IMG/VR virus record: IMGVR_UViG_2526164599_000009
Span: 1-37,661 of that record
Length of the DNA stretch: 37,661 bases
Direction: 5' to 3' (one strand)
Origin: a virus
Taxonomy: Duplodnaviria > Heunggongvirae > Uroviricota > Caudoviricetes
A program made the translations under genes and the position numbers. Positions 4,491-36,774 of the stretch are shown one piece after another (within the stretch, counting starts at the first letter, position 1; every line of letters begins with the position of its first letter). The notes below the pieces were generated by a model. That model searched no databases. It had not been told where the DNA came from and saw only the letters and a list, made by a program, of their open reading frames with translations.

Positions 4491-4513
4491 GGTTACTGGA
4501 CAAAGGGGGCGCA

Positions 4514-4717
4514 ATGGCAATTAAGCATTTTCCCATCATTCGCTTTACCTCCAGAGGGCGCGAATACGAGGTCGACGAACGCCTGATTACCACTATCGAC
4601 AAACATCGTTCGGAAAAGGATGCACACCACATCTACCTCACTGACGGCACTTACTTCTGCGCCACCAACGTGGCGCGGGTGAATCTTATCCGACAGGTAC
4701 AGGAGCCACGCAAATGA
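4514..4717 (+). CDS. Hypothetical early protein
   Basis: 67-aa ORF with strong RBS AAAGGGGG. Confidence 0.5.
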   Translation: MAIKHFPIIRFTSRGREYEVDERLITTIDKHRSEKDAHHIYLTDGTYFCATNVARVNLIRQVQEPRK

Positions 4718-4980
4718 CCATTCTGGACTACATCACTACACATCCGGGTTGTAGCGGCGGAGAAATCGCCGCAGCACTGAACACCCCAACCACAGCTATT
4801 AATGCTGAGTTACGCCGACTTTGGCGCAGCGGCTTAGTCATCAGAACAAACCGCAGCACAGGTGGTCGCGCTCGCAAAACTGGAGGCCAGGCTTCTTACC
4901 ACGTAAACCCGATGCCGTTCGGGTGTAGCAATCCACTTACTCACATGTTTAACCAGCTACTGAAGGAAGCCAGAACATGA
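4714..4980 (+). CDS. Hypothetical protein, possible winged-helix DNA-binding
   Basis: 88-aa ORF, 4-bp overlap with neighbours; HTH-like segment GCSGGEIAAALNTPTTAINAELRRLWRSGLV. Confidence 0.45.
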   Translation: MTILDYITTHPGCSGGEIAAALNTPTTAINAELRRLWRSGLVIRTNRSTGGRARKTGGQASYHVNPMPFGCSNPLTHMFNQLLKEART

Positions 4981-5276
4981 GCACCATCAACCACCAGAAG
5001 CTACGCGAACTGGCATTTGCCCTGCAACGAATGGCAACGCCTCAAAAATTACTGGCATTTCGCGCAATGCTCTCGCCGTCTGCCGTGCTGGCACTGCTGG
5101 ATGAGCTGGAGCACGCCAGAACCACGGCTCCTGCCATTCGCCTGACGCTCCATCATGAAATCGCTGATTTCTGCGCGACGTTGAAGGCGCCAGGCGAACC
5201 GGAAACACCGGAAGCAATACAGCAAGAGCTGCTGCAACGCATTGACAAGGTTTTTGATTTTTTTCTGAACCAGTAA
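4977..5276 (+). CDS. Hypothetical early protein
   Basis: 99-aa ORF, overlap-coupled to previous gene. Confidence 0.5.
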   Translation: MSTINHQKLRELAFALQRMATPQKLLAFRAMLSPSAVLALLDELEHARTTAPAIRLTLHHEIADFCATLKAPGEPETPEAIQQELLQRIDKVFDFFLNQ

Positions 5277-5398
5277 GAAACCAGAACATGCACACACAAA
5301 AAAACCGCTTGCCATGCCGCAATCAGTCAGGTTACATTTCCGCTGCACCTCACAAAACGGGTGTCGGGTTTCGCAGCCTGCTGACTACACAAGCGCAC

Positions 5399-5420
5399 AA
5401 CCGCGCCAGCGGTTTTTTTG
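5399..5420 (+). terminator. Candidate intrinsic terminator
   Basis: stem AACCGC / GCGGTT with loop GCCA followed by TTTTTTT. Confidence 0.4.
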
Positions 5421-5598
5421 TGCGTACTGTATTGCCACGTTTTTTTCGCGTCAGAATTATGGCGGGGCGTACGGGGCCGACTTCGGTCGGGCCGGGTTCT
5501 TGTGTAGCCGGTACTGCGAACCTCGTACGTCTCGCCACCCACAGTTTCGCAGCTCTGGATGGTGAGTTTTCACAACTTACTACACAAGGGGCCACACC

Positions 5599-5829
5599 AT
5601 GGCAAACCGCAAACCACACCGCGCTATCGCGGAGCGTCGTCACATCCAGACTGAAATCAACCGCAGACTTTCCCGCGCATCACGCGTCGCGCAAATCATG
5701 CACATCAATATGCTGCATGAGCGCAGCCACGCACTATCAAACATTTATTCCGCCTCTGTTTTCAGCTATCTGGCGGATGATCTGCACGAGCTTCAACAGC
5801 TCATCCAGCAGCAAAACAAACTCCATTAA
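5599..5829 (+). CDS. Hypothetical small basic protein
   Basis: 76-aa ORF after a roughly 320-bp non-coding stretch; weak RBS. Confidence 0.4.
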   Translation: MANRKPHRAIAERRHIQTEINRRLSRASRVAQIMHINMLHERSHALSNIYSASVFSYLADDLHELQQLIQQQNKLH

Positions 5830-5901
5830 TTCCTGTTCCGGGCCTTTCCTGCACCTTGCGGCGGGAGGCCTTCGCACATCTGTAACAAGAGGATTGCCGC
5901 A

Positions 5902-6267
5902 ATGATTCTCGCCAACGACTTTCTTGAATACCTGCTCAACACAGAACGTGATCTTGCCGCTCGCGTGCGTGATCGTTATGACATGTACCAGAAATCCCTG
6001 CCTGTACCGCAGCTCGCTGACGGAAAGATTGTTATTGATGGTCGCTACATGATTGACAGCCACGAGGGAAATTACAGGCTTTACCGCATTGAAGGTGGCA
6101 CCCCGTCCGTTATTGGCATTTACCAGCGCCCATCCTCTGCAATCGTCGATGTGATTGCCGACAGCATCCGCATCACACATCGCCATGCCGACACAGAAGA
6201 CACCGTGCTGGAAATTCAGCGGCTGGCTACAGCCTGCCGCGACACCCTGAATGGCATGACGAAGTAA
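5902..6267 (+). CDS. Hypothetical protein upstream of replication gene
   Basis: 121-aa ORF with RBS AGAGGA; immediately precedes gene A. Confidence 0.5.
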   Translation: MILANDFLEYLLNTERDLAARVRDRYDMYQKSLPVPQLADGKIVIDGRYMIDSHEGNYRLYRIEGGTPSVIGIYQRPSSAIVDVIADSIRITHRHADTEDTVLEIQRLATACRDTLNGMTK

Positions 6268-6273
6268 ATCACT

Positions 6274-9096
6274 ATGACGGCAGAGTACATCAGGGACTGG
6301 CAACAACCGCGCCACGCAGTGGGGCGTGAAGGAACGGGGATCCCCGCTCCTGAATCCGCGCTTTCCTCCTGGCTGGATGCCTACCGGGTAGAGAACGAGC
6401 GCCGCCAGGAAATGGCTGATGCGGCGTTCTCCGCAACGCCGCTGGGCAACCTGATTAATAAAAGCCTGGACGCACAGGAAAAACAGGACAAAACCATCAC
6501 ACTGGCAGGAGACGCCAGAAAACAGGCACGCGGTGCGGTGGATGAAGCCATGGCCTCGCTGCGCCTGCTGCCGTCCTATCTGCGCGATCCGCTTATTCGC
6601 CACCTCTCCTTCCTGCGCAAAAAACAGGAAGCCGATCGTCAGAAAGGCAAAAAGAGCTGGCAGGCTGAACGCTACGCGCGCGGAAACCTGCGCAAAATAT
6701 TCGAACGTCTGGAGCGCACCGATCACCGCTGGCTGACACAGGGTTATCGCTCCCTTGCCGGACGCGAACGCCTGGACGATTTGCTTTACCTGCCGCAGCT
6801 CAACAAACACCAGATACAGACGCTGGCCACCATGACGGCGGCGATGTTCAGCAGCACCTTCGAAAAACTCTGCGATGGCTTTGGCGCGACCGATGGCGAA
6901 CTGACCATGGATGTAACGCTGAAGGCGTATCAGATGCTGGCCCGCATGGCGTTACACCTGCACGCCATGCCTCCACATTATGACGCACTGACAACAGACA
7001 AAGACCGGAGGAACGAACCGGACACGGAGCTGCTGCCGGGCGCAATCCTTCGCCTGACCTGTGCGGAATGGTGGAAACGCAAACTGTGGCTGTTACGTTG
7101 CGAGTGGAGAGAAGAACAACTCCGCGCCGCCTGTCTGGTTTCCAGAAAAACATCGCCCTATCTGAGCCAGGACGCGTTAAGCGAGTTTCGCGCACAGCGC
7201 GAGAAAACACGCGATTTCCTGAAAAGTTTCATGCTGGAAAACGAAGACGGGTTCACGATTGATCTCGAGACAGTGTATTACGCGGGAGTAAGTAACCCGG
7301 TTCACCGTAAGGCAGAAATGATGGCCACCATGAAGGGGCTGGAACTTCTGGCCGAAGCCCGTGGCGACAAAGCGGTGTTTCTGACTGTCACCTGCCCGTC
7401 AAAATACCACGCTACAACAGAGAACGGTCATCCGAATCCCAAATGGAACGGGGCCACCATGCGCGACTCCAGCGATTACCTGGTTAACACGTTTTTTGCG
7501 GCGGTCCGCAAGAAACTGAACCGCGACGGCCTGCGCTGGTATGGCATCCGCACGGTGGAGCCTCACCATGACGGCACCGTGCACTGGCATATGATGGTCT
7601 TTGCTCATCCGGAAGAAATCGACACCATTGTGTCCCACACCCGCGATATTGCCATTCAGGAAGATCGTCACGAGCTGGGCGATGATATTACTCCGCGCTT
7701 TAAGGCGGAGTATGTCGACGGCTCAAAAGGCACGCCAACCAGCTACATCGCCACCTACATCGGAAAAAACCTGGACAGCCGCGCCGTGGATGGCATCGAC
7801 CCGAAAACAGGCAAACCACGCGTTGACCACGAAACCGGAAAATCAATGACCGAGAGCGTGGAACGCGCCATTGGCTGGGCGCGCCTTCACCGGGTCCGCC
7901 AGTTCCAGTTCTTTGGCATCCCCTCCCGTCAGGTGTGGCGTGAACTGCGTCGCCTTGCCAGCCAGATGGCACGCAACCCGGAAGGCCCGCAACGGCTGAA
8001 GGATGACGCAATGGATGCGGTTCTTGCTGCCGCTGATGCCGGATGTTTTGCCACCTACATTGAGAAACAGGGCGGCGTACTTGTTCCACGCAAAGACTAC
8101 CTGATTCGCACCGCCTACGACCTCGCCGATGAGCTGAACGATTACGGCGAACAGAGCGTACAGATTTACGGGATCTGGTCACCACTCATCGGGGAATCCT
8201 CCCGTGTGTGCACGCATCCGGATAACTGGAAGCTGGTAAGACGCAAACCGGAAGCGGAAGACAGCGCCCGCGAAAATGGTTTTGACCTTCAGGGCGGCCC
8301 TGCCGCCCCTTGGACTCGTGGCAATAACTGTCCCCGTGTACAGGAAACAGACAACAACGGGACAGAACAGCCGGAAGAACGGCCAGCACCGTGGCCGCAG
8401 CTCCCTGACGGCGTTGAAGTGAACGAATGGATGCGCTCACTGAAACGGCACGAACGCCGGGCGCTGATGCGTTCGCTTCGTGACAAACAGGCAAAAAACA
8501 GCCGTGATGAAATGCAGAGCTGGACACAGAGCCGCAAACAGCAGCGGCCTTTGCCTGATAACCACGAATTACTCGCTAAAGAATGGCGGGAGTCTGCTGA
8601 ATCTCTCGGCCTGCATATCGGTGAACAGCAGATGCAGCACCTGTTACGGGGCGGCAGTCTGTACGTTGACGGCAGCATCATTGCACCGCAGGGATTTGAA
8701 ATTGTACGCAAACCGGATACCCGACCGGACAGCCGGATCACGCAGCTCTGGCAGCGCCTGAGCCGTAACCACGGCGTAAGCAGCACGGAGATCCGCCATA
8801 ACCCGGTCGCCAGCTATCTGGAACAGCTGGGGGCATCAGACCCCGAAGCCGCCGCACGCCTGGCATCCACACTTCAGCAAGACCAGAACACCATGAAAAC
8901 ACCCGTTACCGTGCTTTCTGACATGCTGCGCGCCATCCGCGACGCAGAGCACGCACAGAGAATCAGTGAAACCACTGAACGCGCCCACCGCAAAGCAGAC
9001 CTGCTGCGGGGTGGCCTGACCAGTGGAAACAAAAAACAGACAGAAACGGGATTCACAAATCCCGTAAATGAGCAAAAAACGCGCCGCGATATATGA
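6274..9096 (+). CDS. A: Rolling-circle replication initiator (P2 gpA-like, HUH endonuclease)
   Basis: 940-aa ORF; HUH-type motif HWHMMVF and tyrosine motif YIATYIGKNLD; position matches P2 A; about 180 aa longer than P2 A as recalled. Confidence 0.85.
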   Translation: MTAEYIRDWQQPRHAVGREGTGIPAPESALSSWLDAYRVENERRQEMADAAFSATPLGNLINKSLDAQEKQDKTITLAGDARKQARGAVDEAMASLRLLPSYLRDPLIRHLSFLRKKQEADRQKGKKSWQAERYARGNLRKIFERLERTDHRWLTQGYRSLAGRERLDDLLYLPQLNKHQIQTLATMTAAMFSSTFEKLCDGFGATDGELTMDVTLKAYQMLARMALHLHAMPPHYDALTTDKDRRNEPDTELLPGAILRLTCAEWWKRKLWLLRCEWREEQLRAACLVSRKTSPYLSQDALSEFRAQREKTRDFLKSFMLENEDGFTIDLETVYYAGVSNPVHRKAEMMATMKGLELLAEARGDKAVFLTVTCPSKYHATTENGHPNPKWNGATMRDSSDYLVNTFFAAVRKKLNRDGLRWYGIRTVEPHHDGTVHWHMMVFAHPEEIDTIVSHTRDIAIQEDRHELGDDITPRFKAEYVDGSKGTPTSYIATYIGKNLDSRAVDGIDPKTGKPRVDHETGKSMTESVERAIGWARLHRVRQFQFFGIPSRQVWRELRRLASQMARNPEGPQRLKDDAMDAVLAAADAGCFATYIEKQGGVLVPRKDYLIRTAYDLADELNDYGEQSVQIYGIWSPLIGESSRVCTHPDNWKLVRRKPEAEDSARENGFDLQGGPAAPWTRGNNCPRVQETDNNGTEQPEERPAPWPQLPDGVEVNEWMRSLKRHERRALMRSLRDKQAKNSRDEMQSWTQSRKQQRPLPDNHELLAKEWRESAESLGLHIGEQQMQHLLRGGSLYVDGSIIAPQGFEIVRKPDTRPDSRITQLWQRLSRNHGVSSTEIRHNPVASYLEQLGASDPEAAARLASTLQQDQNTMKTPVTVLSDMLRAIRDAEHAQRISETTERAHRKADLLRGGLTSGNKKQTETGFTNPVNEQKTRRDI

Positions 9097-14997: not shown

Positions 14998-15152
14998 TGC
15001 TCCCCCTGAGTAATTACAGGAAGATTACCCGCGCGCGAAACCGTTCTCCTTAACCCCCTGTTCTGGCCGTTTTCTTACAACAAAAGCCCTTTGTATCAGC
15101 CTGTTACGCTTTGCCATCATGACTGAAGAACCAGTCAGAGGGGCAAAAAACT
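14998..15152. promoter_or_regulatory. Divergent late promoter region (P and O operons)
   Basis: intergenic region between divergent packaging/head operons as in P2; TGT-N11-ACG near-match to the recalled Ogr dyad, exact site not resolved. Confidence 0.3.
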
Positions 15153-22883: not shown

Positions 22884-23484
22884 TTCGTTGTTACCACCAT
22901 CAGCCAGCAATTTCATGCGTTGTGCCGAAGCCGTCGGAACACGCATTACAGACATTCCGGTAGACCTCAACACGCTGTGGTCGCCGGACACCTGCCCGGT
23001 GCATCTGCTGCCTTATCTCGCCTGGGCGTTTTCCGTTGACCGCTGGGATCGCAACTGGCCGGAAGAGACAAAGCGACAGGTGATTCGTGATGCATGGCTG
23101 ATACACCGACACAAAGGGACCATCAGCGCACTGCGAAGAGCCGTGGAGCCTCTCGGTTACCTGATTGAAGTAAAGGAGTGGTGGCAACTCAACGAGGAGC
23201 CGGGAACATTTCGCATTGTTGTCGGAGTACTTGATCAGGGCATCACCAATGAAATGTATCAGGAACTTGAGCGCCTTATTGCGGATGCAAAACCAGTAAG
23301 TCGCCATCTGACGGGGCTGGCGATCAGCCTGAGTGTGAACGGAAAGATTTTCGTTGGTACGGGATGCTATCACGGCGATGCCCTGACGGTTTATCCCTAC
23401 ACCCCGGAGTCCATTATTGTCGAAGGGGACTATTTCCCTGCCCCGGCCATTCATTTAATTGATAATCTGAGAGTAAACGCATGA
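22876..23484 (+). CDS. I: Baseplate protein (P2 gpI-like)
   Basis: ATG 22876 overlapping J stop; about 202 aa. Confidence 0.75.
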   Translation: MSNSLLPPSASNFMRCAEAVGTRITDIPVDLNTLWSPDTCPVHLLPYLAWAFSVDRWDRNWPEETKRQVIRDAWLIHRHKGTISALRRAVEPLGYLIEVKEWWQLNEEPGTFRIVVGVLDQGITNEMYQELERLIADAKPVSRHLTGLAISLSVNGKIFVGTGCYHGDALTVYPYTPESIIVEGDYFPAPAIHLIDNLRVNA

Positions 23485-25124
23485 CAGTGAAATACTACGC
23501 CATTCTGACTAATCAGGGCGCGGCACGACTGGCTAACGCGACGATGCTCGGCAGTAAGCTGAATCTGACGCAAATGGCCGTTGGTGATGCAAATGGTGTG
23601 TTACCAACACCAGACCCTGCACAAACAAAACTGATTAACCAGAAACGCATTGCACCGCTGAATCTTCTGAGTGTTGACCCTAACAATCAGAGCCAGATTA
23701 TTGCGGAGCAAATCATCCCTGAAAACGAGGGAGGATTCTGGATCCGTGAGATTGGTCTTTATGATGATGAAGGTGTACTCATTGCGGTGGCAAACTGCCC
23801 GGAAACGTACAAACCGCAGTTGCAGGAAGGCAGTGGACGCACCCAGACTATCCGCATGATTCTGGTTGTCACGAACACCGAAGCCATCACGCTGAAAATC
23901 GACCCGTCTGTGGTTCTGGCAACCCGCAAATATGTGGATGATAAAATATCAGAGCACGAACAATCACGACGTCACCCGGACGCCTCGCTGACCGTAAAAG
24001 GTTTTACTCAGTTAAGCAGTGCAATTAACAGTGAATCAGAAACACTGGCCGCAACACCGAAAGCGGTTAAGGCTGCATATGACCTGGCTAACGGGAAATA
24101 TACCGCCCAGAACGCCACCACTACACAAAAAGGGATTGTTCAGCTCAGTAGCGCCACGAACAGCACGTCTGAAACGCTGGCAGCGACACCAAAAGCTGTT
24201 AAGGTGGTAATGGATGAAACGAACAAGAAAGCACCATTAAACAGCCCGGCACTGACCGGAACGCCAACAACACCAACAGCGCCACAGGGGACTAATAATA
24301 CCCAGATCGCAAGCACAGCTTTCGTTATGGCCGCGATTGCCGCACTTGTAGATTCGTCACCTGATGCACTGAACACGCTGAACGAACTGGCTGCGGCGCT
24401 GGGCAATGACCCGAATTTTGCGACCACCATGACTAACGCGCTTGCGGGTAAGCAACCGAAGGATGCCATCCTGACGGCGCTGGCGAAGCTTGCTACATCA
24501 GCAGATAAACTCCCATATTTTACAGGGGCAGATCGTGCCGCGTTAACCGCGTTGACAAGTGTTGGACGTGCCATTCTTGGTAAAACCAGCACTCAGGGCG
24601 TTCTTGATTACCTTGGTTTGGGGGAAGGTTCTGCGCTGCCTGTTGGTGTGCCCGTTCCGTGGCCCTCAGCAACACCACCAACGGGCTGGCTGAAATGTAA
24701 CGGCGCAGCATTTTCTTCTGAAATGTATCCCGGACTGGCAAAGGCTTACCCCACCAATAAATTACCGGATTTACGGGGTGAATTTATTCGTGGCTGGGAT
24801 GATGGACGTAGTGCGGATGCGGGGAGAACAATATTATCCGCTCAAGGTGATGCCATACGTAATATCTATGGTGAGTTCAAGACTGTAAACACTGAAAATT
24901 ATTCAATATGGGAATCAGTAGGCTCGTTTAAGGGGGCAGTGGTGCCTTTAAATTCCTCAACAAACAATAGTTATTTCTCCTTAGTCAGAAGTATGGTGAC
25001 AGAAAGGACAGACGGCGCTGTTTACCCAAAAGTGATTGGCCTTGATGCTTCAAAAATTGTTCCAACTGCAAACGAAAACCGCCCACGCAACATTGCGTTT
25101 AATTACATCGTAAGGGCAGCATGA
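23481..25124 (+). CDS. H: Tail fibre protein (P2 gpH-like), constant part fused to variable cassette 1
   Basis: 547-aa ORF; tandem repeats LSSA(I/T)NS(E/T)SETLAATPKAVK; C-terminal 170 aa from the crossover site at about 24613 form an exchangeable cassette. Confidence 0.85.
   Translation: MTVKYYAILTNQGAARLANATMLGSKLNLTQMAVGDANGVLPTPDPAQTKLINQKRIAPLNLLSVDPNNQSQIIAEQIIPENEGGFWIREIGLYDDEGVLIAVANCPETYKPQLQEGSGRTQTIRMILVVTNTEAITLKIDPSVVLATRKYVDDKISEHEQSRRHPDASLTVKGFTQLSSAINSESETLAATPKAVKAAYDLANGKYTAQNATTTQKGIVQLSSATNSTSETLAATPKAVKVVMDETNKKAPLNSPALTGTPTTPTAPQGTNNTQIASTAFVMAAIAALVDSSPDALNTLNELAAALGNDPNFATTMTNALAGKQPKDAILTALAKLATSADKLPYFTGADRAALTALTSVGRAILGKTSTQGVLDYLGLGEGSALPVGVPVPWPSATPPTGWLKCNGAAFSSEMYPGLAKAYPTNKLPDLRGEFIRGWDDGRSADAGRTILSAQGDAIRNIYGEFKTVNTENYSIWESVGSFKGAVVPLNSSTNNSYFSLVRSMVTERTDGAVYPKVIGLDASKIVPTANENRPRNIAFNYIVRAA
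24613..24635 (+). other. Invertase crossover site 1 (hix/gix-like), inside H
   Basis: TTGGTTTGGGGGAAGG shared with five other sites; left half-site differs here (GATTACC instead of GAAAACG). Confidence 0.55.
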
Positions 25125-25146
25125 AAACGTTGGTTTGGGGGAAGGT
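25124..25146 (+). other. Invertase crossover site 2
   Basis: GAAAACGTTGGTTTGGGGGAAGG; resembles the Hin hixL core as recalled. Confidence 0.6.
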
Positions 25147-25638
25147 TCTGCGCTGCCTGTTGGTGTGCCCGTTCCATGGCCCTCAGCCACACCACCAACG
25201 GGCTGGCTGAAATGCAATGGTGCAGCATTTTCTTCTGAAATGTACCCCAAACTGGCAAAAGCCTACCCCGCAAATAAATTACCGGATTTACGGGGAGAAT
25301 TTATTCGCGGCTGGGATGATGGGCGCGGGGTGGATGCTGGCCGCGCTTTGCTTAATTGGCAGCCACACACAATTTTGGATCATGCACACTATATGGAATT
25401 ATGGACCGGGAACGGACTTGCCGTGGAAAGTGCACGGGAAGGATTAAACCCTGGAATACTGGCTACATACGGGGACGGGGGAATAGTTAAAACAGACGAA
25501 CCCGGTTTAAGGGTGCCTTCCTCACTACGAGCCATTAGCTCTCGTAATGTAAAACGGTTTGGTGAAATTAGTGGAAATGTAGGTACAGAAACTCGCCCTC
25601 GCAACGTTGCATTCAATTACATCGTAAGAGCCGCATGA
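25135..25638 (+). CDS. Promoterless tail-fibre C-terminal cassette 2
   Basis: 167 aa; shares the first roughly 60 aa (GEGSALPVGVPVPWPSATPPTGWLKCNGAAF...) and last roughly 15 aa (RPRN[IV]AFNYIVRAA) with the H C-terminus. Confidence 0.6.
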   Translation: MGEGSALPVGVPVPWPSATPPTGWLKCNGAAFSSEMYPKLAKAYPANKLPDLRGEFIRGWDDGRGVDAGRALLNWQPHTILDHAHYMELWTGNGLAVESAREGLNPGILATYGDGGIVKTDEPGLRVPSSLRAISSRNVKRFGEISGNVGTETRPRNVAFNYIVRAA

Positions 25639-25655
25639 AAACGTTGGTTTGGGGG
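25637..25655 (+). other. Invertase crossover site 3
   Basis: GAAAACGTTGGTTTGGGGG. Confidence 0.6.
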
Positions 25656-26125
25656 AAGGCTCTGCACTGCCCGTTGGTGTGCCTGTTCCATGGCCCTCAG
25701 CCACACCACCAACGGGCTGGCTGAAATGTAACGGTGCAGCATTTTCTTCTGAAATGTATCCCGGACTGGCAAAGGCTTACCCCACAAATAAATTACCGGA
25801 TTTACGCGGAGAATTTATCCGTGGCTGGGATGATGGGCGAGGAATTGATGCGGCACGCGCTTTATTGAGCATTCAAAACGGGATGTTGGAAAAACACCGC
25901 CATATTGTTGTAGCTAACGATGGATATGACACAAAAGATGAATGGGAGTTGGCTACGATTTTCAAAAAAACATATACACAAGGCAGGGGACTTGATGCCA
26001 CAAATACAGGAGGGAGTTTGATTCCATCACCAACGCTTCATTCACGAGGAAGTATTGGTAACACAGGTGGTAGTGAAACCCGCCCCCGCAATATTGCATT
26101 TAACTATATCGTGAGGGCGGCTTAG
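25649..26125 (+). CDS. Promoterless tail-fibre C-terminal cassette 3
   Basis: 158 aa; conserved N- and C-terminal ends, unique middle. Confidence 0.6.
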   Translation: MGEGSALPVGVPVPWPSATPPTGWLKCNGAAFSSEMYPGLAKAYPTNKLPDLRGEFIRGWDDGRGIDAARALLSIQNGMLEKHRHIVVANDGYDTKDEWELATIFKKTYTQGRGLDATNTGGSLIPSPTLHSRGSIGNTGGSETRPRNIAFNYIVRAA

Positions 26126-26131
26126 TTATAT

Positions 26132-26743
26132 TCAACTGGCTGATGCCAGTGGTATTTCCGGCAAGTTGATATCTGGTGCCATGTTTATATCCATTGCGTT
26201 CAGCGCGTCTATATAATCCAGCACGGCATTAAGCCGGGTGGTTTCTGCCTGCGTCAACTTCCGCCCGGCCCGCAACTTCAACTGAATCAGACTTATGGAA
26301 TCCATTGCCGCATCAGCCAGTGACTGGCGCTTGGTTTCTGCCGCTTCTACTGCGGCACGATGTTGTACCTCAGTATCTGTCACCCATTTTTCACCATCCC
26401 ATTTATCGTATGGTGTTAACGGGGCGATAGTGGTTGTATTTTTCGGGTAGTCACCCAGCGCCGTGATTTCTTCGGTGTTTCCCGTGTCAGTGCTATAGAC
26501 GGTTTCACCACGATGGTCTGGCGCATACTCCCATGAATTTAAATCCTCCGAACGGCGAATAGCATAGCCAGATTTATGTGCGCCTGGGGCATCTAAACAG
26601 GAATTAGCCGGAATACCAACACCCACAGCAAGATATTCAGTTGATTCGGAAATATATTCCCGTGTCTCACCATCATAGTTATAAACGACGATGTTTCCTG
26701 CCTGTACGGCAATAAGGTCATCATTTAATATCGCGTTATTCAT
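26132..26743 (-). CDS. Tail fibre assembly chaperone (Tfa/gpG-like)
   Basis: 203-aa ORF starting 1 nt inside the stop of minus-strand cassette 4 (TAATG); typical position for a fibre chaperone. Confidence 0.7.
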   Translation of the reverse strand: MNNAILNDDLIAVQAGNIVVYNYDGETREYISESTEYLAVGVGIPANSCLDAPGAHKSGYAIRRSEDLNSWEYAPDHRGETVYSTDTGNTEEITALGDYPKNTTTIAPLTPYDKWDGEKWVTDTEVQHRAAVEAAETKRQSLADAAMDSISLIQLKLRAGRKLTQAETTRLNAVLDYIDALNAMDINMAPDINLPEIPLASAS

Positions 26744-27205
26744 TATGCGGTTCTCACAATATAATTGAAGGCAATATTGCGTGGGCGGGCTTCATTCCCC
26801 CCTGAGGATTCCGTTCTGTATTGACTGGTAAATCTACCGTTAATTGCACCTTGCCGGACGGCGTTATCTGTCGACAACAGACTATCCCCTCCTTTGTCAT
26901 TTGGCACCAGTACCGTGTTATCCCACGCGTCCCATGACCGAATATTATGATAATGACTTCCTGTTAACCACCCCTGCATGCTTAAGATGCCCCTTCCGGC
27001 ATCCACCCCGCGCCCATCATCCCAGCCACGGATAAATTCACCGCGTAAGTCTGGTAATTTATTGGTGGGGTAAGCCATTGCCAGTCTGGGATACATTTCA
27101 GAAGAAAATGCTGCGCCGTTACATTTCAGCCAGCCCGTTGGTGGTGTTGCTGAGGGCCACGGAACAGGCACACCAACGGGCAGTGCAGAACCTTCTCCTA
27201 AACCA
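26743..27205 (-). CDS. Promoterless tail-fibre C-terminal cassette 4 (inverted)
   Basis: reads GLGEGSALPVGVPVPW... in frame upstream of the track GTG start at 27171; unique middle, conserved ends; directly followed by the Tfa gene. Confidence 0.6.
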
Positions 27206-27214
27206 ACGTTTTCA
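27190..27214 (-). other. Invertase crossover site 4 (inverted)
   Basis: reverse complement reads GAAAACGTTGGTTTAGGAGAAGG. Confidence 0.55.
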
Positions 27215-27715
27215 TGCGGCTCTTACGATGTAATTGAATGCAACGTTGCGAGGGCGAGTTTCTGTACCTACATTTCCACTAATTTCACCAAACCGTTTTA
27301 CATTACGAGAGCTAATGGCTCGTAGTGAGGAAGGCACCCTTAAACCGGGTTCGTCTGTTTTAACTATTCCCCCGTCCCCGTATGTAGCCAGTATTCCAGG
27401 GTTTAATCCTTCCCGTGCACTTTCCACGGCAAGTCCGTTCCCGGTCCATAATTCCATATAGTGTGCATGATCCAAAATTGTGTGTGGCTGCCAATTAAGC
27501 AAAGCGCGGCCAGCATCCACCCCGCGCCCATCATCCCAGCCGCGAATAAATTCTCCCCGTAAATCCGGTAATTTATTTGCGGGGTAGGCTTTTGCCAGTC
27601 CGGGATACATTTCAGAAGAAAATGCTGCACCATTGCATTTCAGCCAGCCCGTTGGTGGTGTGGCTGAGGGCCATGGAACGGGCACACCAACAGGCAGCGC
27701 AGAACCTTCCCCCAA
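27212..27715 (-). CDS. Promoterless tail-fibre C-terminal cassette 5 (inverted near-identical copy of cassette 2)
   Basis: 167 aa, differs from cassette 2 by one residue (G for K). Confidence 0.6.
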   Translation of the reverse strand: MGEGSALPVGVPVPWPSATPPTGWLKCNGAAFSSEMYPGLAKAYPANKLPDLRGEFIRGWDDGRGVDAGRALLNWQPHTILDHAHYMELWTGNGLAVESAREGLNPGILATYGDGGIVKTDEPGLRVPSSLRAISSRNVKRFGEISGNVGTETRPRNVAFNYIVRAA

Positions 27716-27727
27716 ACCAACGTTTTC
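27705..27727 (-). other. Invertase crossover site 5 (inverted)
   Basis: reverse complement reads GAAAACGTTGGTTTGGGGGAAGG. Confidence 0.6.
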
Positions 27728-28289
27728 ATGCTGCCCTTACGATGTAATTAAACGCAATGTTGCGTGGGCGGTTTTCGTTTGCAGTTGGAACAATTTTTGA
27801 AGCATCAAGGCCAATCACTTTTGGGTAAACAGCGCCGTCTGTCCTTTCTGTCACCATACTTCTGACTAAGGAGAAATAACTATTGTTTGTTGAGGAATTT
27901 AAAGGCACCACTGCCCCCTTAAACGAGCCTACTGATTCCCATATTGAATAATTTTCAGTGTTTACAGTCTTGAACTCACCATAGATATTACGTATGGCAT
28001 CACCTTGAGCGGATAATATTGTTCTCCCCGCATCCGCACTACGTCCATCATCCCAGCCACGAATAAATTCACCCCGTAAATCCGGTAATTTATTGGTGGG
28101 GTAAGCCTTTGCCAGTCCGGGATACATTTCAGAAGAAAATGCTGCGCCGTTACATTTCAGCCAGCCCGTTGGTGGTGTTGCTGAGGGCCACGGAACGGGC
28201 ACACCAACAGGCAGCGCAGAACCTTCCCCCAAACCAACGTTTTCGTTTTTATCCCTACCTATACCAACTATGTATTTTTCACGAAACAA
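27726..28289 (-). CDS. Promoterless tail-fibre C-terminal cassette 6 (inverted copy of the H C-terminus)
   Basis: from GEGSALPV onward identical in protein and DNA to H residues about 378-547; the N-terminal 17 codons of the track ORF are outside the cassette. Confidence 0.6.
   Translation of the reverse strand: MFREKYIVGIGRDKNENVGLGEGSALPVGVPVPWPSATPPTGWLKCNGAAFSSEMYPGLAKAYPTNKLPDLRGEFIRGWDDGRSADAGRTILSAQGDAIRNIYGEFKTVNTENYSIWESVGSFKGAVVPLNSSTNNSYFSLVRSMVTERTDGAVYPKVIGLDASKIVPTANENRPRNIAFNYIVRAA
28222..28245 (-). other. Invertase crossover site 6 (inverted)
   Basis: reverse complement reads GAAAACGTTGGTTTGGGGGAAGG; about 60 bp from the invertase start. Confidence 0.6.
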
Positions 28290-28303
28290 AGAGGATGTTT
28301 TTT

Positions 28304-28903
28304 ATGCAAATTGGCTATATTCGTGTGTCAACAAATGACCAGAACACGGATTTACAACGCAATGCACTGAACTGCGCAGGATGTGAACTGATTTTTGAAG
28401 ATAAAATCAGCGGAACGAAATCAGCCAGACCGGGATTGAAAAAACTGCTCAGAACGCTATCAGAAGGAGATACGCTGGTTGTCTGGAAGCTGGACAGACT
28501 GGGCAGAAGTATGAAACACCTGATCACGCTTATTGAGGAATTGCGGGAAAAAGGTGTTAATTTCCGTAGTCTGACGGACAGCATTGACACATCAACACCC
28601 ATGGGGCGTTTCTTTTTTCACGTCATGGGGGCTTTAGCCGAAATGGAACGTGAATTAATTGTAGAGCGTACACTGGCCGGGCTGGCAGCAGCACGCGCAC
28701 AAGGACGCATTGGCGGACGTCGCCCGAAGTTGACAAAAGAACAACACGAGCAAATAGCGAGGCTGATTAAAAACGGTCATGACAGGAAACAACTGGCGAT
28801 CATTTACGACATCGGCATATCGACGATTTATCGTTATCACCCTGTAGGCGATATACAGGCTGAAGAAACAACCAGGCAGACTCAGGAAAATGAAAACCGC
28901 TAA
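28304..28903 (+). CDS. Serine DNA invertase (Hin/Gin/Cin/Pin family)
   Basis: ATG 28304; N-terminus MQIGYIRVSTNDQNTDLQRNAL with catalytic Ser in the RVST context; C-terminal HTH (GISTIYRY); 199 aa. Confidence 0.9.
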   Translation: MQIGYIRVSTNDQNTDLQRNALNCAGCELIFEDKISGTKSARPGLKKLLRTLSEGDTLVVWKLDRLGRSMKHLITLIEELREKGVNFRSLTDSIDTSTPMGRFFFHVMGALAEMERELIVERTLAGLAAARAQGRIGGRRPKLTKEQHEQIARLIKNGHDRKQLAIIYDIGISTIYRYHPVGDIQAEETTRQTQENENR

Positions 28904-28921
28904 TCTGACCATTAGCGGTTT
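28893..28921. terminator. Bidirectional hairpin between convergent invertase and gpU genes
   Basis: perfect stem ACCGCTAAT / ATTAGCGGT with loop CTGACC, flanked by A-run upstream and TTTTG downstream; overlaps the invertase stop. Confidence 0.5.
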
Positions 28922-28929
28922 TGCGTTAA

Positions 28930-34505: not shown

Positions 34506-34662
34506 AGCTTTAGCCCCTTGTATCCGTTAAATGATTCGGCAACAATCATCACCCACCACGCGCGTAATCTCACCCCTGTGCCGTTCTCCCGATCCGGCGA
34601 CAACAAAAAGCAGTAACCCCCTCCGCACGCACATGCGACCATGCCGCACAGGGAGGGAACAG
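34506..34662. promoter_or_regulatory. Divergent promoter region between FI operon and D
   Basis: 157-bp intergenic region between divergent late genes; promoter elements not resolved. Confidence 0.3.
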
Positions 34663-36447: not shown

Positions 36448-36774
36448 ATGACTAAAAATACTCGTTTTTCCCCCGAAGTCCGTCAGAGGGCGATTCGTAT
36501 GGTTCTGGAAAGTCAGGGCGAATATGACTCACAGTGGGCGGCAATTTGTTCCATTGCCCCAAAGATTGACTGTACACCGGAGACTCTGCGTGTCTGGGTA
36601 CGCCAGCATGAGCGGGATACCGGAGGCGGTGATGGCGGGCTCACCACCGCTGAACGTCAGCGTCTGAAAGAGCTGGAACGTGAAAATCGTGAACTGCGCC
36701 GCAGTAACGATATCCTTCGCCAGGCTTCCGCTTATTTTGCGAAGGCGGAGTTCGACCGCCTCTGGAAAAAGTGA
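36448..36774 (+). CDS. IS3-family transposase OrfA (HTH, leucine zipper)
   Basis: [22 protein letters not shown]...[29 protein letters not shown] matches IS629-group OrfA as recalled. Confidence 0.85.

What the first reader, a model, noticed from the sequence alone, without database searches (positions are those of the whole stretch)
26132..27205. Only one tail-fibre chaperone gene, attached to an inverted cassette, while the expressed H fusion has none downstream
In Mu, P1 and P2 each fibre variant is followed by its own assembly chaperone. Here the single Tfa gene is co-oriented with cassette 4 on the minus strand (1-nt stop/start overlap) and the in-frame H-cassette 1 fusion is followed only by promoterless cassettes. 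Either cassettes 1-3 fold without a chaperone, Tfa is expressed from its own promoter in any orientation, or the observed orientation is a fibre-defective or alternative phase.
Basis: inference. Interest (0 to 1): 0.5.

Follow-up and report, generated by a model that had tools for sequence, protein, structure and literature searches.

The report
One shared chaperone in tail-fibre shufflon
A P2-like E. coli prophage swaps the tip of its tail fibre by DNA inversion among six cassettes (four distinct) but keeps one assembly-chaperone gene, which looks like a general chaperone shared by all tips and is turned round by every inversion; the switch type is known, but how the chaperone is supplied when it faces the wrong way is not.

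Summary
The window has one Tfa gene (26132-26743, minus). Its ATG overlaps the stop of cassette D (TAATG). The in-frame H fusion on the plus strand is followed only by start-less cassettes.

The locus is a Min/Pin-type multiple-inversion switch in a P88-like prophage. It has six crossover sites, a serine invertase and six collar-type cassettes. Only four cassettes are distinct, because A and B are mirrored in a near-perfect 1.04-kb inverted duplication.

Three results change the reading:
- **The layout is family-wide.** All 33 related single-Tfa arrays place Tfa behind D (17 antisense, 16 sense to H). A 34th array carries two Tfa genes, through duplication of the central segment.
- **Tfa is not specific to D.** Elsewhere, A-, B- and C-type cassettes (79-97% identical) each carry their own coupled Tfa. 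Those Tfas are 78-97% alike although the tips are only 17-47% alike.
- **Every inversion flips the central segment** (C> <tfa <D). All nine single inversions from this state put tfa downstream of H, and seven keep the same fibre.

Cassettes without their own Tfa are under purifying selection (dN/dS 0.06-0.18), including C, which can never be co-oriented with tfa. How Tfa reaches H-C fibres is unresolved; I found no convincing promoter.

Known kind of system, moderate interest.

The parts
23481..24612 (+). Constant 5' part of tail-fibre gene H (P2 gpH-type N-terminus and fibre repeats)
   Evidence: Pfam Phage_tail_fib 1.6e-62 and Phage_fiber_2 2.4e-41. It is 98-99% identical in E. coli relatives.
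24601..24626 (+). Crossover site 1 (TTCTTGATTACC TT GGTTTGGGGGAA), inside the H reading frame
   Evidence: Pattern search and sequence reading
24613..25124 (+). Cassette A, currently fused in frame to H (collar domain plus variable tip)
   Evidence: Continuous ORF. Pfam Collar. PDB matches 9cuy at 2.7e-25 and T4 gp37 (2xgf) at 8.6e-17.
25118..25143 (+). Crossover site 2 (GCATGAAAACG TT GGTTTGGGGGAA)
25132..25638 (+). Cassette B, silent (no ATG, no promoter)
   Evidence: Elsewhere B-type cassettes (89-91% identical) carry their own Tfa.
25632..25657 (+). Crossover site 3
25646..26125 (+). Cassette C, one head of the two-headed central segment; convergent with tfa
   Evidence: dN/dS among C copies without their own Tfa is 0.06.
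26132..26743 (-). tfa, the only tail-fibre assembly chaperone gene in the window
   Evidence: Pfam Caudo_TAP 1e-30. PHROG 105 at 1e-90. It is the only hit in the window.
26743..27204 (-). Cassette D, the other head of the central segment; its TAA stop overlaps the tfa ATG
   Evidence: The D-tfa linkage is constant in all 33 single-Tfa arrays.
27193..27218 (-). Crossover site 4
27212..27718 (-). Cassette B', an inverted duplicate of B (3 mismatches)
27707..27732 (-). Crossover site 5
27726..28235 (-). Cassette A', an inverted duplicate of A (100% identical)
28224..28249 (-). Crossover site 6, next to the invertase
28250..28303 (.). Spacer between site 6 and the invertase ATG, containing an exact TGT-N12-ACA dyad at 28271-28288
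   Evidence: This spacer type is seen almost only in single-Tfa arrays. Its function is unknown.
28304..28903 (+). Serine DNA invertase (Hin/Gin/Cin/Pin/Min family), co-oriented with H
   Evidence: Pfam Resolvase 1.5e-51 and HTH_7 1.4e-12. The N-terminal 109 residues are 97% identical to the frameshifted invertase of a P1-like phage.
28893..28922 (.). Bidirectional terminator-like hairpin between the invertase stop and the gpU stop
   Evidence: It is also conserved in the two-Tfa phage P88.

Best explanation
**What the locus is (shown).** The 24.6-28.3 kb region is a Min/Pin-type multiple-inversion switch that exchanges the receptor-binding end of tail-fibre gene H. A serine invertase recombines six sites that lie inside the coding sequence. 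The constant part of H is thereby joined to one of six start-less cassettes. These are gp37/gp12-like collar domains with a variable tip; four are distinct and two are duplicated.

**How the chaperone relates to the cassettes (shown).** The single tfa gene sits in the one segment bounded by two cassette heads (C> <tfa <D). That segment lies between all plus-oriented and all minus-oriented sites. Every inversion therefore flips it, and tfa alternates between lying downstream in the H late operon and lying antisense to it. The window shows the antisense state. Tfa is a general chaperone for this class of tips, not D's private partner; the other cassettes descend from cassettes that each had their own copy.

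**My inference.** One copy suffices because Tfa acts in trans on whichever cassette is fused to H. In the sense state it is made from the H late transcript. In the antisense state, which is the only state possible for H-C, it must still be available. Possible sources are a transcript that does not depend on the H promoter, or sister genome copies in the other state during lytic replication. The route is not identified.
For: **Architecture.**
- Six sites, three in each orientation, with an invertase next to them.
- Enumeration gives 240 labelled (60 distinct) isomers. tfa is sense in exactly half. H-C is always antisense and H-D always sense. All nine single inversions from the observed state make tfa sense, and seven keep H-A.
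- Natural isomers: among 33 single-Tfa arrays, 17 are antisense and 16 sense. Examples include E. coli EC43 (H-B,E,S,D,tfa> <C) and P1-like plasmids.
- Inversion has been shown experimentally in the EPEC E2348/69 relative (three inverted repeats, four coexisting variants; PMC4272514), whose locus reads Hc-N,C,<tfa,<D,invertase.

**Tfa is generic.**
- A-type cassettes (83-93% identical), B-type (89-91%) and C-type (79-97%) occur elsewhere directly followed by their own Tfa, with stop/start overlap.
- Tfas that follow ten cassette types are 78-93% identical in the N-domain and 82-97% in the C-domain. The tips they follow are only 17-47% identical.
- Across 67 cassette-Tfa pairs, tip identity and Tfa N-domain identity correlate only weakly (rho 0.13).

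**One copy serves all.**
- Every one of the 33 arrays keeps exactly one Tfa, alongside 2-9 cassettes.
- Cassettes without their own Tfa are under purifying selection: C 0.06 (dS 0.50), A 0.16, B 0.16, E 0.18, against 0.15 for D.

**Fold.** The cassettes share the collar and the C-terminal NIAFNYIVR motif with T4 gp37. From memory, gp37 assembly can be assisted by lambda Tfa.
Against: - No convincing promoter for tfa was found. Sigma-70-like hits are at chance level (8 found, 8.6 expected).
- tfa has only a weak Shine-Dalgarno sequence (GAGA) and a TAATG overlap. That suggests its translation is coupled to translation of D.
- In the antisense state the strong H late transcript runs antisense across tfa, with no terminator in between.
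- Read-through from the convergent tail operon must pass a hairpin terminator that the two-Tfa phage P88 also has. P1-like carriers of the same module have no convergent operon at all.
- Classical systems (Mu, P1, P88 and the relatives where each cassette keeps its own Tfa) retain two tfa copies. That argues an antisense copy is normally not enough.
- A few collar-tipped fibres have no Tfa, for example L051, where H is followed directly by the sheath gene.
- The dN/dS pairs are not phylogenetically independent.
Confidence: 0.5

Rival explanations
1. Cassettes without their own Tfa (A, B, C) fold without it, or with host chaperones. Only D needs Tfa, and tfa is made only in the H-D state through translational coupling.
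For: - The TAATG overlap and weak Shine-Dalgarno sequence fit expression coupled to D.
- C is selected yet never co-oriented with tfa.
- Collar-tipped fibres with no Tfa exist: L051, Xenorhabdus and Yersinia remnants, and a Tfa-less convergent cassette pair in L040.
- From memory, T4 gp12 has the same collar domain and does not use a gp38/Tfa-type chaperone.
Against: - Near-identical A-, B- and C-type cassettes elsewhere keep a coupled Tfa.
- That Tfa does not vary with tip type, so nothing marks D as special.
- Overall, 75 of 128 collar cassettes across Enterobacterales are directly followed by a Tfa.
Confidence: 0.3
2. tfa has orientation-independent transcription from a specific element. 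Candidates are a leftward promoter in the conserved spacer between site 6 and the invertase (the TGT-N12-ACA, P2 Ogr-type dyad at 28271-28288), a promoter inside D, or read-through of the convergent tail operon. This is one specific route within the best explanation.
For: - The exact dyad is rare in the window: 3 matches against 9.5 expected.
- If leftward, it sits about 55 bp from a start point just inside the first cassette. That matches the geometry at the window's P/O and FI/D late-promoter regions.
- This spacer type goes with single-Tfa arrays. Arrays where each cassette has its own Tfa carry a different spacer.
- The tail operon converges on the switch.
Against: - The sequence at the expected -10 position is poor (my reading).
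- The dyad is also kept in a P1-like phage, which uses a different late activator. The association may only reflect shared ancestry with this invertase subtype.
- The terminator hairpin between gpU and the invertase is conserved in two-Tfa P88 as well.
- Convergent H transcription would interfere.
Confidence: 0.2
3. The antisense isomers, including the one in this window, are fibre-defective phases. Only isomers with tfa in the H operon give infectious particles, and every inversion toggles infectivity on or off.
For: - tfa orientation toggles at every inversion.
- There is no promoter or co-oriented chaperone in this state.
- Classical systems keep a tfa for each orientation.
Against: - C can only ever be expressed in an antisense state, yet it has dN/dS 0.06 at dS 0.50.
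- Two-cassette relatives such as STEC1590 would lose half of their output.
- The module is widespread: 142 E. coli genomes and 74 plasmids.
Confidence: 0.15
4. The six-cassette palindromic arrangement is an assembly artefact of a mixed-orientation population, and the true locus has four cassettes.
For: - A and A' are 100% identical, and B and B' differ at 3 bases.
- The exact H-A protein is recorded on only one contig, from the E. coli DEC13D draft genome.
Against: - Cassette duplications on both sides of the central segment occur in independent assemblies (L092, L113, L114; the module itself is duplicated in L095).
- One unequal homologous crossover between two isomers produces exactly this structure, and its reciprocal is the two-cassette form seen in STEC1590.
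- Even if true, the single-Tfa observation is unaffected.
Confidence: 0.07

Closest known systems
Min multiple-inversion system of plasmid p15B (Sandmeier, Iida, Arber 1990-1992; details from memory, papers not held)
   Same: - A serine invertase and six crossover sites inside a tail-fibre gene.
- A constant 5' part fused to alternative short 3' cassettes.
- 240 isomers, the same number I obtain by enumeration.
- P1-like phage-plasmids carry the same D-tfa module and cassette types. One P1-like phage has an invertase 97% identical over the N-terminal 109 residues.
   Different: Here the system sits in a P2/P88-like prophage, between the H operon and a convergent tail operon. Two of the cassettes are inverted duplicates. 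I could not read the p15B papers to see whether the single tfa was noted.
Shufflon in a P2-like prophage of EPEC E2348/69 (Goldberg et al. 2014, PMC4272514)
   Same: Same prophage backbone, invertase, central C> <tfa <D segment and single tfa. Coexisting inversion variants were shown experimentally.
   Different: EPEC has three sites and three cassettes (four variants). The window has six sites. That paper does not discuss the chaperone.
Mu G segment / P1 C segment / phage P88 invertible fibre region
   Same: A Hin-family invertase switches the 3' end of the fibre gene, and a Tfa-family chaperone (U/U') lies downstream. P88 shares the whole backbone and gene order with the window.
   Different: Those systems have two sites and two variable ends, each with its own tfa. 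Here there are six sites, six cassettes and one tfa.
R64-type shufflon (PilV, Rci)
   Same: Multiple overlapping inversions select one of several C-terminal ends for a surface adhesin.
   Different: It uses a tyrosine recombinase (Rci), targets a pilus tip protein and involves no chaperone gene.
T4 gp37 tip with gp38, and lambda Stf with Tfa
   Same: The cassettes share the collar and the C-terminal NIAFNYIVR motif with gp37. From memory, a Tfa-type chaperone acting across different tips has a precedent: lambda Tfa can replace gp38.
   Different: No DNA inversion is involved. The chaperone is always co-transcribed with its fibre.

Membership tests
Hin/Gin/Cin/Pin/Min invertase-driven tail-fibre switch | An adjacent serine recombinase with a resolvase catalytic domain and a C-terminal HTH | tested here: met
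   Pfam Resolvase 1.5e-51 and HTH_7 1.4e-12 at 28304-28903
Hin/Gin/Cin/Pin/Min invertase-driven tail-fibre switch | Imperfect-dyad crossover sites of about 26 bp in inverted orientation, lying inside the fibre coding sequence | tested here: met
   Six sites...AAAACG TT GGTTTGGGGGAA, three on each strand. The comparison with the hix/gix consensus is from memory; a gix-like site is visible in P88.
Hin/Gin/Cin/Pin/Min invertase-driven tail-fibre switch | Inversion actually occurs | tested here: met
   17 antisense and 16 sense isomers among related assemblies. The EPEC relative was shown experimentally to vary (PMC4272514; locus). This was not tested in the source strain.
Hin/Gin/Cin/Pin/Min invertase-driven tail-fibre switch | A Fis-dependent recombinational enhancer in the 5' part of the invertase gene | not tested
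   No reliable sequence test is available with these tools
Min-type multiple-inversion system (p15B) | More than two sites, giving overlapping invertible segments and many isomers | tested here: met
   Four single-cassette segments plus one two-headed segment give 240 labelled isomers
Mu G / P1 C type two-state switch | Each alternative 3' end is followed by its own tfa (U, U') | tested here: not met
   One tfa for six cassettes
Tfa / Caudo_TAP tail-fibre assembly proteins (lambda Tfa, P2 gpG, Mu U) | Sequence membership, and a position directly downstream of the fibre 3' end | tested here: met
   PF02413 at 1e-30. PHROG 105 at 1e-90. TAATG overlap with cassette D.
Tfa / Caudo_TAP tail-fibre assembly proteins (lambda Tfa, P2 gpG, Mu U) | A variable, fibre-specific N-domain and a conserved C-domain (Mu Tfa model, as summarised in PMC9608196) | tested here: inconclusive
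   Within this clade the N-domain is almost as conserved as the C-domain (78-93% against 82-97%) and does not track the tip type
Tfa / Caudo_TAP tail-fibre assembly proteins (lambda Tfa, P2 gpG, Mu U) | Chaperone activity on the fibre trimer | not testable with these tools
   Needs co-expression or genetics
gp37/gp12-type collar receptor-binding tips | A Collar domain with a C-terminal strand that returns to the collar | tested here: met
   PF07484 in all cassettes. PDB matches 2xgf at 8.6e-17 including NIAFNYIVR, 9cuy at 2.7e-25, and 1ocy.
R64-type shufflon | A tyrosine recombinase, Rci | tested here: not met
   The recombinase here is a serine invertase

The most novel reading that the evidence does not exclude
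Because every inversion flips the tfa-bearing segment, tfa orientation acts as a parity switch layered on the cassette choice. Each tip (A, B) would exist in a 'with Tfa' and a 'without Tfa' form. If Tfa stays bound to the tip, as reported for Mu, that would give two functional fibre states per cassette, or an infectivity on/off phase coupled to every inversion. C would have evolved to work only in the Tfa-less state.
Probability: 0.12. Interest if true: 0.7.

Novelty: new member of a known kind. Interest (0 to 1): 0.4.

Why it matters
Tail-fibre swapping for phage and tailocin engineering is usually assumed to need the matching chaperone for each tip. This natural system runs up to nine different tips on one chaperone gene. 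That suggests a general-purpose Tfa for gp37-like collar tips, which would be a useful part.

It also raises a concrete question that can be tested. A cassette under strong selection (C) can never be co-transcribed with the only chaperone gene, so how does it fold? The two-cassette relatives (H-C | <tfa <D) are a simple system in which to answer this.

Tried and rejected
- **Second chaperone.** tblastn and a profile HMM over all frames found none. The only plus-strand ORF inside tfa is a 51-codon antisense ORF; I did not test it further.
- **Own sigma-70 promoter.** The consensus scan is at chance level and finds nothing upstream of tfa within D. A 'CTGGCA-17-TAAATT' match in the conserved cassette head scores only 8 of 12 and is explained by the coding sequence.
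- **P2 late-promoter dyad.** There is an exact TGT-N12-ACA in the invertase spacer, but the expected -10 is poor and the dyad is conserved in a P1-like phage too. I keep it only as a lead.
- **Read-through from the convergent tail operon.** It is blocked by a hairpin that two-Tfa P88 also has, and no convergent operon exists in the P1-like carriers. It is not a general solution.
- **RNA element.** There is no Rfam match in 23-30 kb at E up to 1.
- **Solved structure for Tfa.** phmmer finds no PDB hit. I did not run structure prediction because complexes cannot be submitted.
- **p15B papers.** PMID 1534556 and PMC206102 are not held, so all p15B details are from memory.
- **L005.** I first counted the P1-like phage 813R1 as a single-Tfa array. 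The profile HMM shows a second, divergent Tfa, so I excluded it.

Full report
**1. What is in the sequence**

The window is a P2-like prophage with the gene order of Escherichia phage P88 (Xuanwuvirus). Baseplate genes V, W, J and I and fibre gene H lie on the plus strand. An invertible region and a serine invertase follow. The tail genes U, T, E, FII and FI then lie on the minus strand, converging on the switch.

H (23481-25124) is one ORF of 547 aa. It has a P2-type N-terminus, fibre repeats and a C-terminal Collar domain. Downstream lie five more collar cassettes: B and C on the plus strand, and D, B' and A' on the minus strand.

Each cassette begins at a conserved crossover site (...AAAACG TT GGTTTGGGGGAAGG). 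Three sites are on each strand. The invertase (28304-28903) has Resolvase and HTH_7 domains.

The only Tfa gene is 26132-26743 on the minus strand (Caudo_TAP 1e-30; PHROG 105 at 1e-90). Its ATG overlaps the TAA stop of cassette D. Neither tblastn nor a Tfa profile HMM finds another copy in the window.

**2. A correction: only four distinct cassettes**

A' is 100% identical to A, and B' differs from B at three bases. Together they form a 1.04-kb inverted duplication, 24613-25650 against 27200-28237. The layout is palindromic: Hc A B [C> <tfa <D] <B' <A' invertase.

One unequal homologous crossover inside the central segment would produce exactly this. The parents would be two isomers of a four-cassette ancestor, 'Hc A B [C<T<D]' and 'Hc [C<T<D] <B <A'. 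The reciprocal product, 'Hc [C<T<D]', is what E. coli STEC1590 carries.

Cassette duplications recur in independent assemblies (L092, L113, L114; the module itself is duplicated in L095). I therefore treat the duplication as real. The source may be a draft genome, since the exact H-A protein is recorded only for E. coli DEC13D.

**3. Topology**

Four segments carry one cassette each, with a head at one end and a tail at the other. The central segment has a cassette head at both ends. Any legal arrangement is a chain of plus-oriented single cassettes, then the central segment in either orientation, then minus-oriented single cassettes.

That gives 4! x 5 x 2 = 240 arrangements. From memory, this is the number published for the Min system of plasmid p15B. 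A breadth-first enumeration confirms the following:
- There are 240 labelled isomers, 60 of them sequence-distinct.
- tfa is co-oriented with H in exactly half.
- H-C always has tfa antisense, and H-D always has it directly downstream.
- H-A and H-B occur equally in both states.

Every inversion pairs a plus site left of the central segment with a minus site right of it. Every inversion therefore flips tfa. From the observed isomer, all nine single inversions place tfa downstream of H, and seven of them keep the H-A fibre. 'No chaperone downstream' is thus a property of this snapshot for cassettes A and B. It is intrinsic only to C.

**4. The layout is family-wide and the switch is active**

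The C> <tfa <D module is intact in 142 of 5426 complete E. coli genomes. It is also in 74 plasmids of 92-100 kb; those examined or listed are P1-like phage-plasmids.

I examined 33 single-Tfa arrays with 2-9 cassettes. In all of them tfa sits behind D. A 34th array (L095) has two tfa genes because the central segment is duplicated. tfa is antisense to H in 17 arrays and sense in 16.

Examples with tfa in the H operon behind silent cassettes are E. coli EC43 and two P1-like plasmids.

The EPEC E2348/69 locus reads Hc-N, C, <tfa, <D, invertase. This matches the P2-like prophage shufflon with three inverted repeats and four coexisting variants that Goldberg et al. demonstrated by sequencing and PCR (PMC4272514).

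**5. Tfa is a general chaperone, not D's private partner**

In a second group of relatives, every cassette is directly followed by its own Tfa with stop/start overlap. This group includes A-type cassettes (variable part 83-93% identical to the window's), B-type (89-91%) and C-type (79-97%).

| Comparison across ten cassette types | Identity |
|---|---|
| Tfa N-terminal domain | 78-93% |
| Tfa C-terminal domain | 82-97% |
| Variable tips they follow | 17-47% |

Over 67 non-redundant cassette-Tfa pairs, tip identity and Tfa N-domain identity correlate only weakly (rho 0.13). Of 117 pairs with N-domains at least 70% identical, 81 have tips no more than 35% identical.

The conserved parts of the cassettes are homologous to the collar of the T4 gp37 tip (2xgf, 8.6e-17, including the C-terminal NIAFNYIVR), to gp12, and to a short tail fibre (9cuy, 2.7e-25). 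From memory, lambda Tfa can replace gp38 in gp37 assembly, which is a precedent for a Tfa that is not tip-specific.

The general Tfa model has a fibre-specific N-domain and a conserved C-domain (summarised in PMC9608196). That model does not describe the variation seen within this clade.

**6. Cassettes without their own Tfa are functional**

| Cassette | dN/dS | Note |
|---|---|---|
| C (no own Tfa) | 0.06 | 103 pairs, mean dS 0.50 |
| A (no own Tfa) | 0.16 | |
| B (no own Tfa) | 0.16 | |
| E (no own Tfa) | 0.18 | |
| D (own Tfa) | 0.15 | |
| A, B and C types with own Tfa | 0.12-0.38 | |

These are Nei-Gojobori estimates. The pairs are not phylogenetically independent, and exchange with copies that have their own Tfa could contribute. 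Still, copies of a cassette type that lack their own Tfa are closer to each other than to copies that have one.

These cassettes have no start codon or promoter, so selection can act on them only when they are fused to H. For C that always means tfa is antisense.

**7. How it most likely works**

Shown: this is a Min-type switch with a single generic Tfa, an orientation that toggles at every inversion, and functional cassettes that lack their own Tfa.

Inferred: one copy suffices because Tfa acts in trans on whichever tip is fused to H. In the sense state it is made from the H late transcript. No terminator-like site lies on the plus strand between H and the hairpin beyond the invertase, apart from a weak 5-bp stem inside tfa.

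For the antisense state I cannot identify the route:
- Sigma-70-like hits are at chance level, and none lies upstream of tfa.
- tfa has a weak Shine-Dalgarno sequence and looks translationally coupled to D.
- The hairpin between gpU and the invertase is also present in two-Tfa P88.
- P1-like carriers have no convergent operon.
- An exact TGT-N12-ACA dyad (P2 late-activator type) lies in the spacer next to the invertase at 28271-28288. It has the right geometry for a leftward start, and this spacer type is seen almost only in single-Tfa arrays. However, the expected -10 is poor and a P1-like phage also keeps the dyad.
- Supply from sister genome copies that invert during lytic replication is possible, because the invertase is downstream in the late transcript. 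This is untested.

My estimates for the antisense state:

| Possibility | Estimate |
|---|---|
| Tfa is still available | about 0.45-0.5 |
| Cassettes without their own Tfa do not need it | about 0.3 |
| Fibre-defective phase | about 0.15 |

**8. Comparison and novelty**

The locus meets every tested defining feature of Hin-family fibre switches and of the Min-type multiple-inversion variant. It fails the Mu/P1 feature 'one tfa per variable end', and it is not an Rci shufflon.

The same system has been described in p15B and in EPEC, so this is a new member of a known kind. What is apparently not discussed in the papers I could read is the one-chaperone-for-many-tips design and the parity toggling. 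Those give a concrete, testable question and a possibly useful general chaperone. I rate interest as moderate.

Noticed in passing
window 24613-25650 vs 27200-28237: A near-perfect 1.04-kb inverted duplication of cassettes A and B makes the switch palindromic. It can be explained by one unequal crossover between two isomers, whose reciprocal product is the two-cassette form in E. coli STEC1590 (L001).
   Followed up: yes
window 28271-28288: An exact TGT-N12-ACA dyad (P2 Ogr-type) lies between crossover site 6 and the invertase ATG. This spacer type goes with single-Tfa arrays, while arrays where each cassette has its own Tfa carry a different spacer. Near-consensus dyads followed by ACAAAAGC/ACAAAAAGC sit at the expected late-promoter regions, 15062-15079 and 34585-34602.
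   Followed up: partly
window 25118-25131, 25632-25645 (and mirror copies): The tails of single cassettes read GCAGCATGAAAACG, with an ATG overlapping the cassette stop. This resembles the cassette-to-tfa junction GCATAATGAATAACG. It looks like the remnant of a deleted tfa start, and it opens a 29-codon out-of-frame ORF.
   Followed up: no
window 28893-28922: A bidirectional terminator-like hairpin (AAAACCGCTAAT...ATTAGCGGTTTT) lies between the convergent invertase and gpU stops. It is conserved in phage P88.
   Followed up: yes
window 24810-25121 vs other cassettes: Cassette A lacks the H-x-H motif present just after the collar in B (HAH), C (HRH) and D (HYH). It has GDAIRNI instead, as in the solved short tail fibre 9cuy. 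The tips may therefore fall into two structural subtypes.
   Followed up: no
L095 (IMG/VR contig), about 4500-6700: One relative carries the central segment twice, head to head (H N C <tfa <D D> tfa> <C). It is the only array with two tfa genes.
   Followed up: no
L051 6702-9863 (Pluralibacter MAG): A P2-like prophage whose collar-tipped H gene is followed directly by the tail sheath gene, with no Tfa gene at all.
   Followed up: partly
window 36448-36774: An IS transposase fragment (PHROG 151) lies just beyond gene D, near the right end of the prophage.
   Followed up: no
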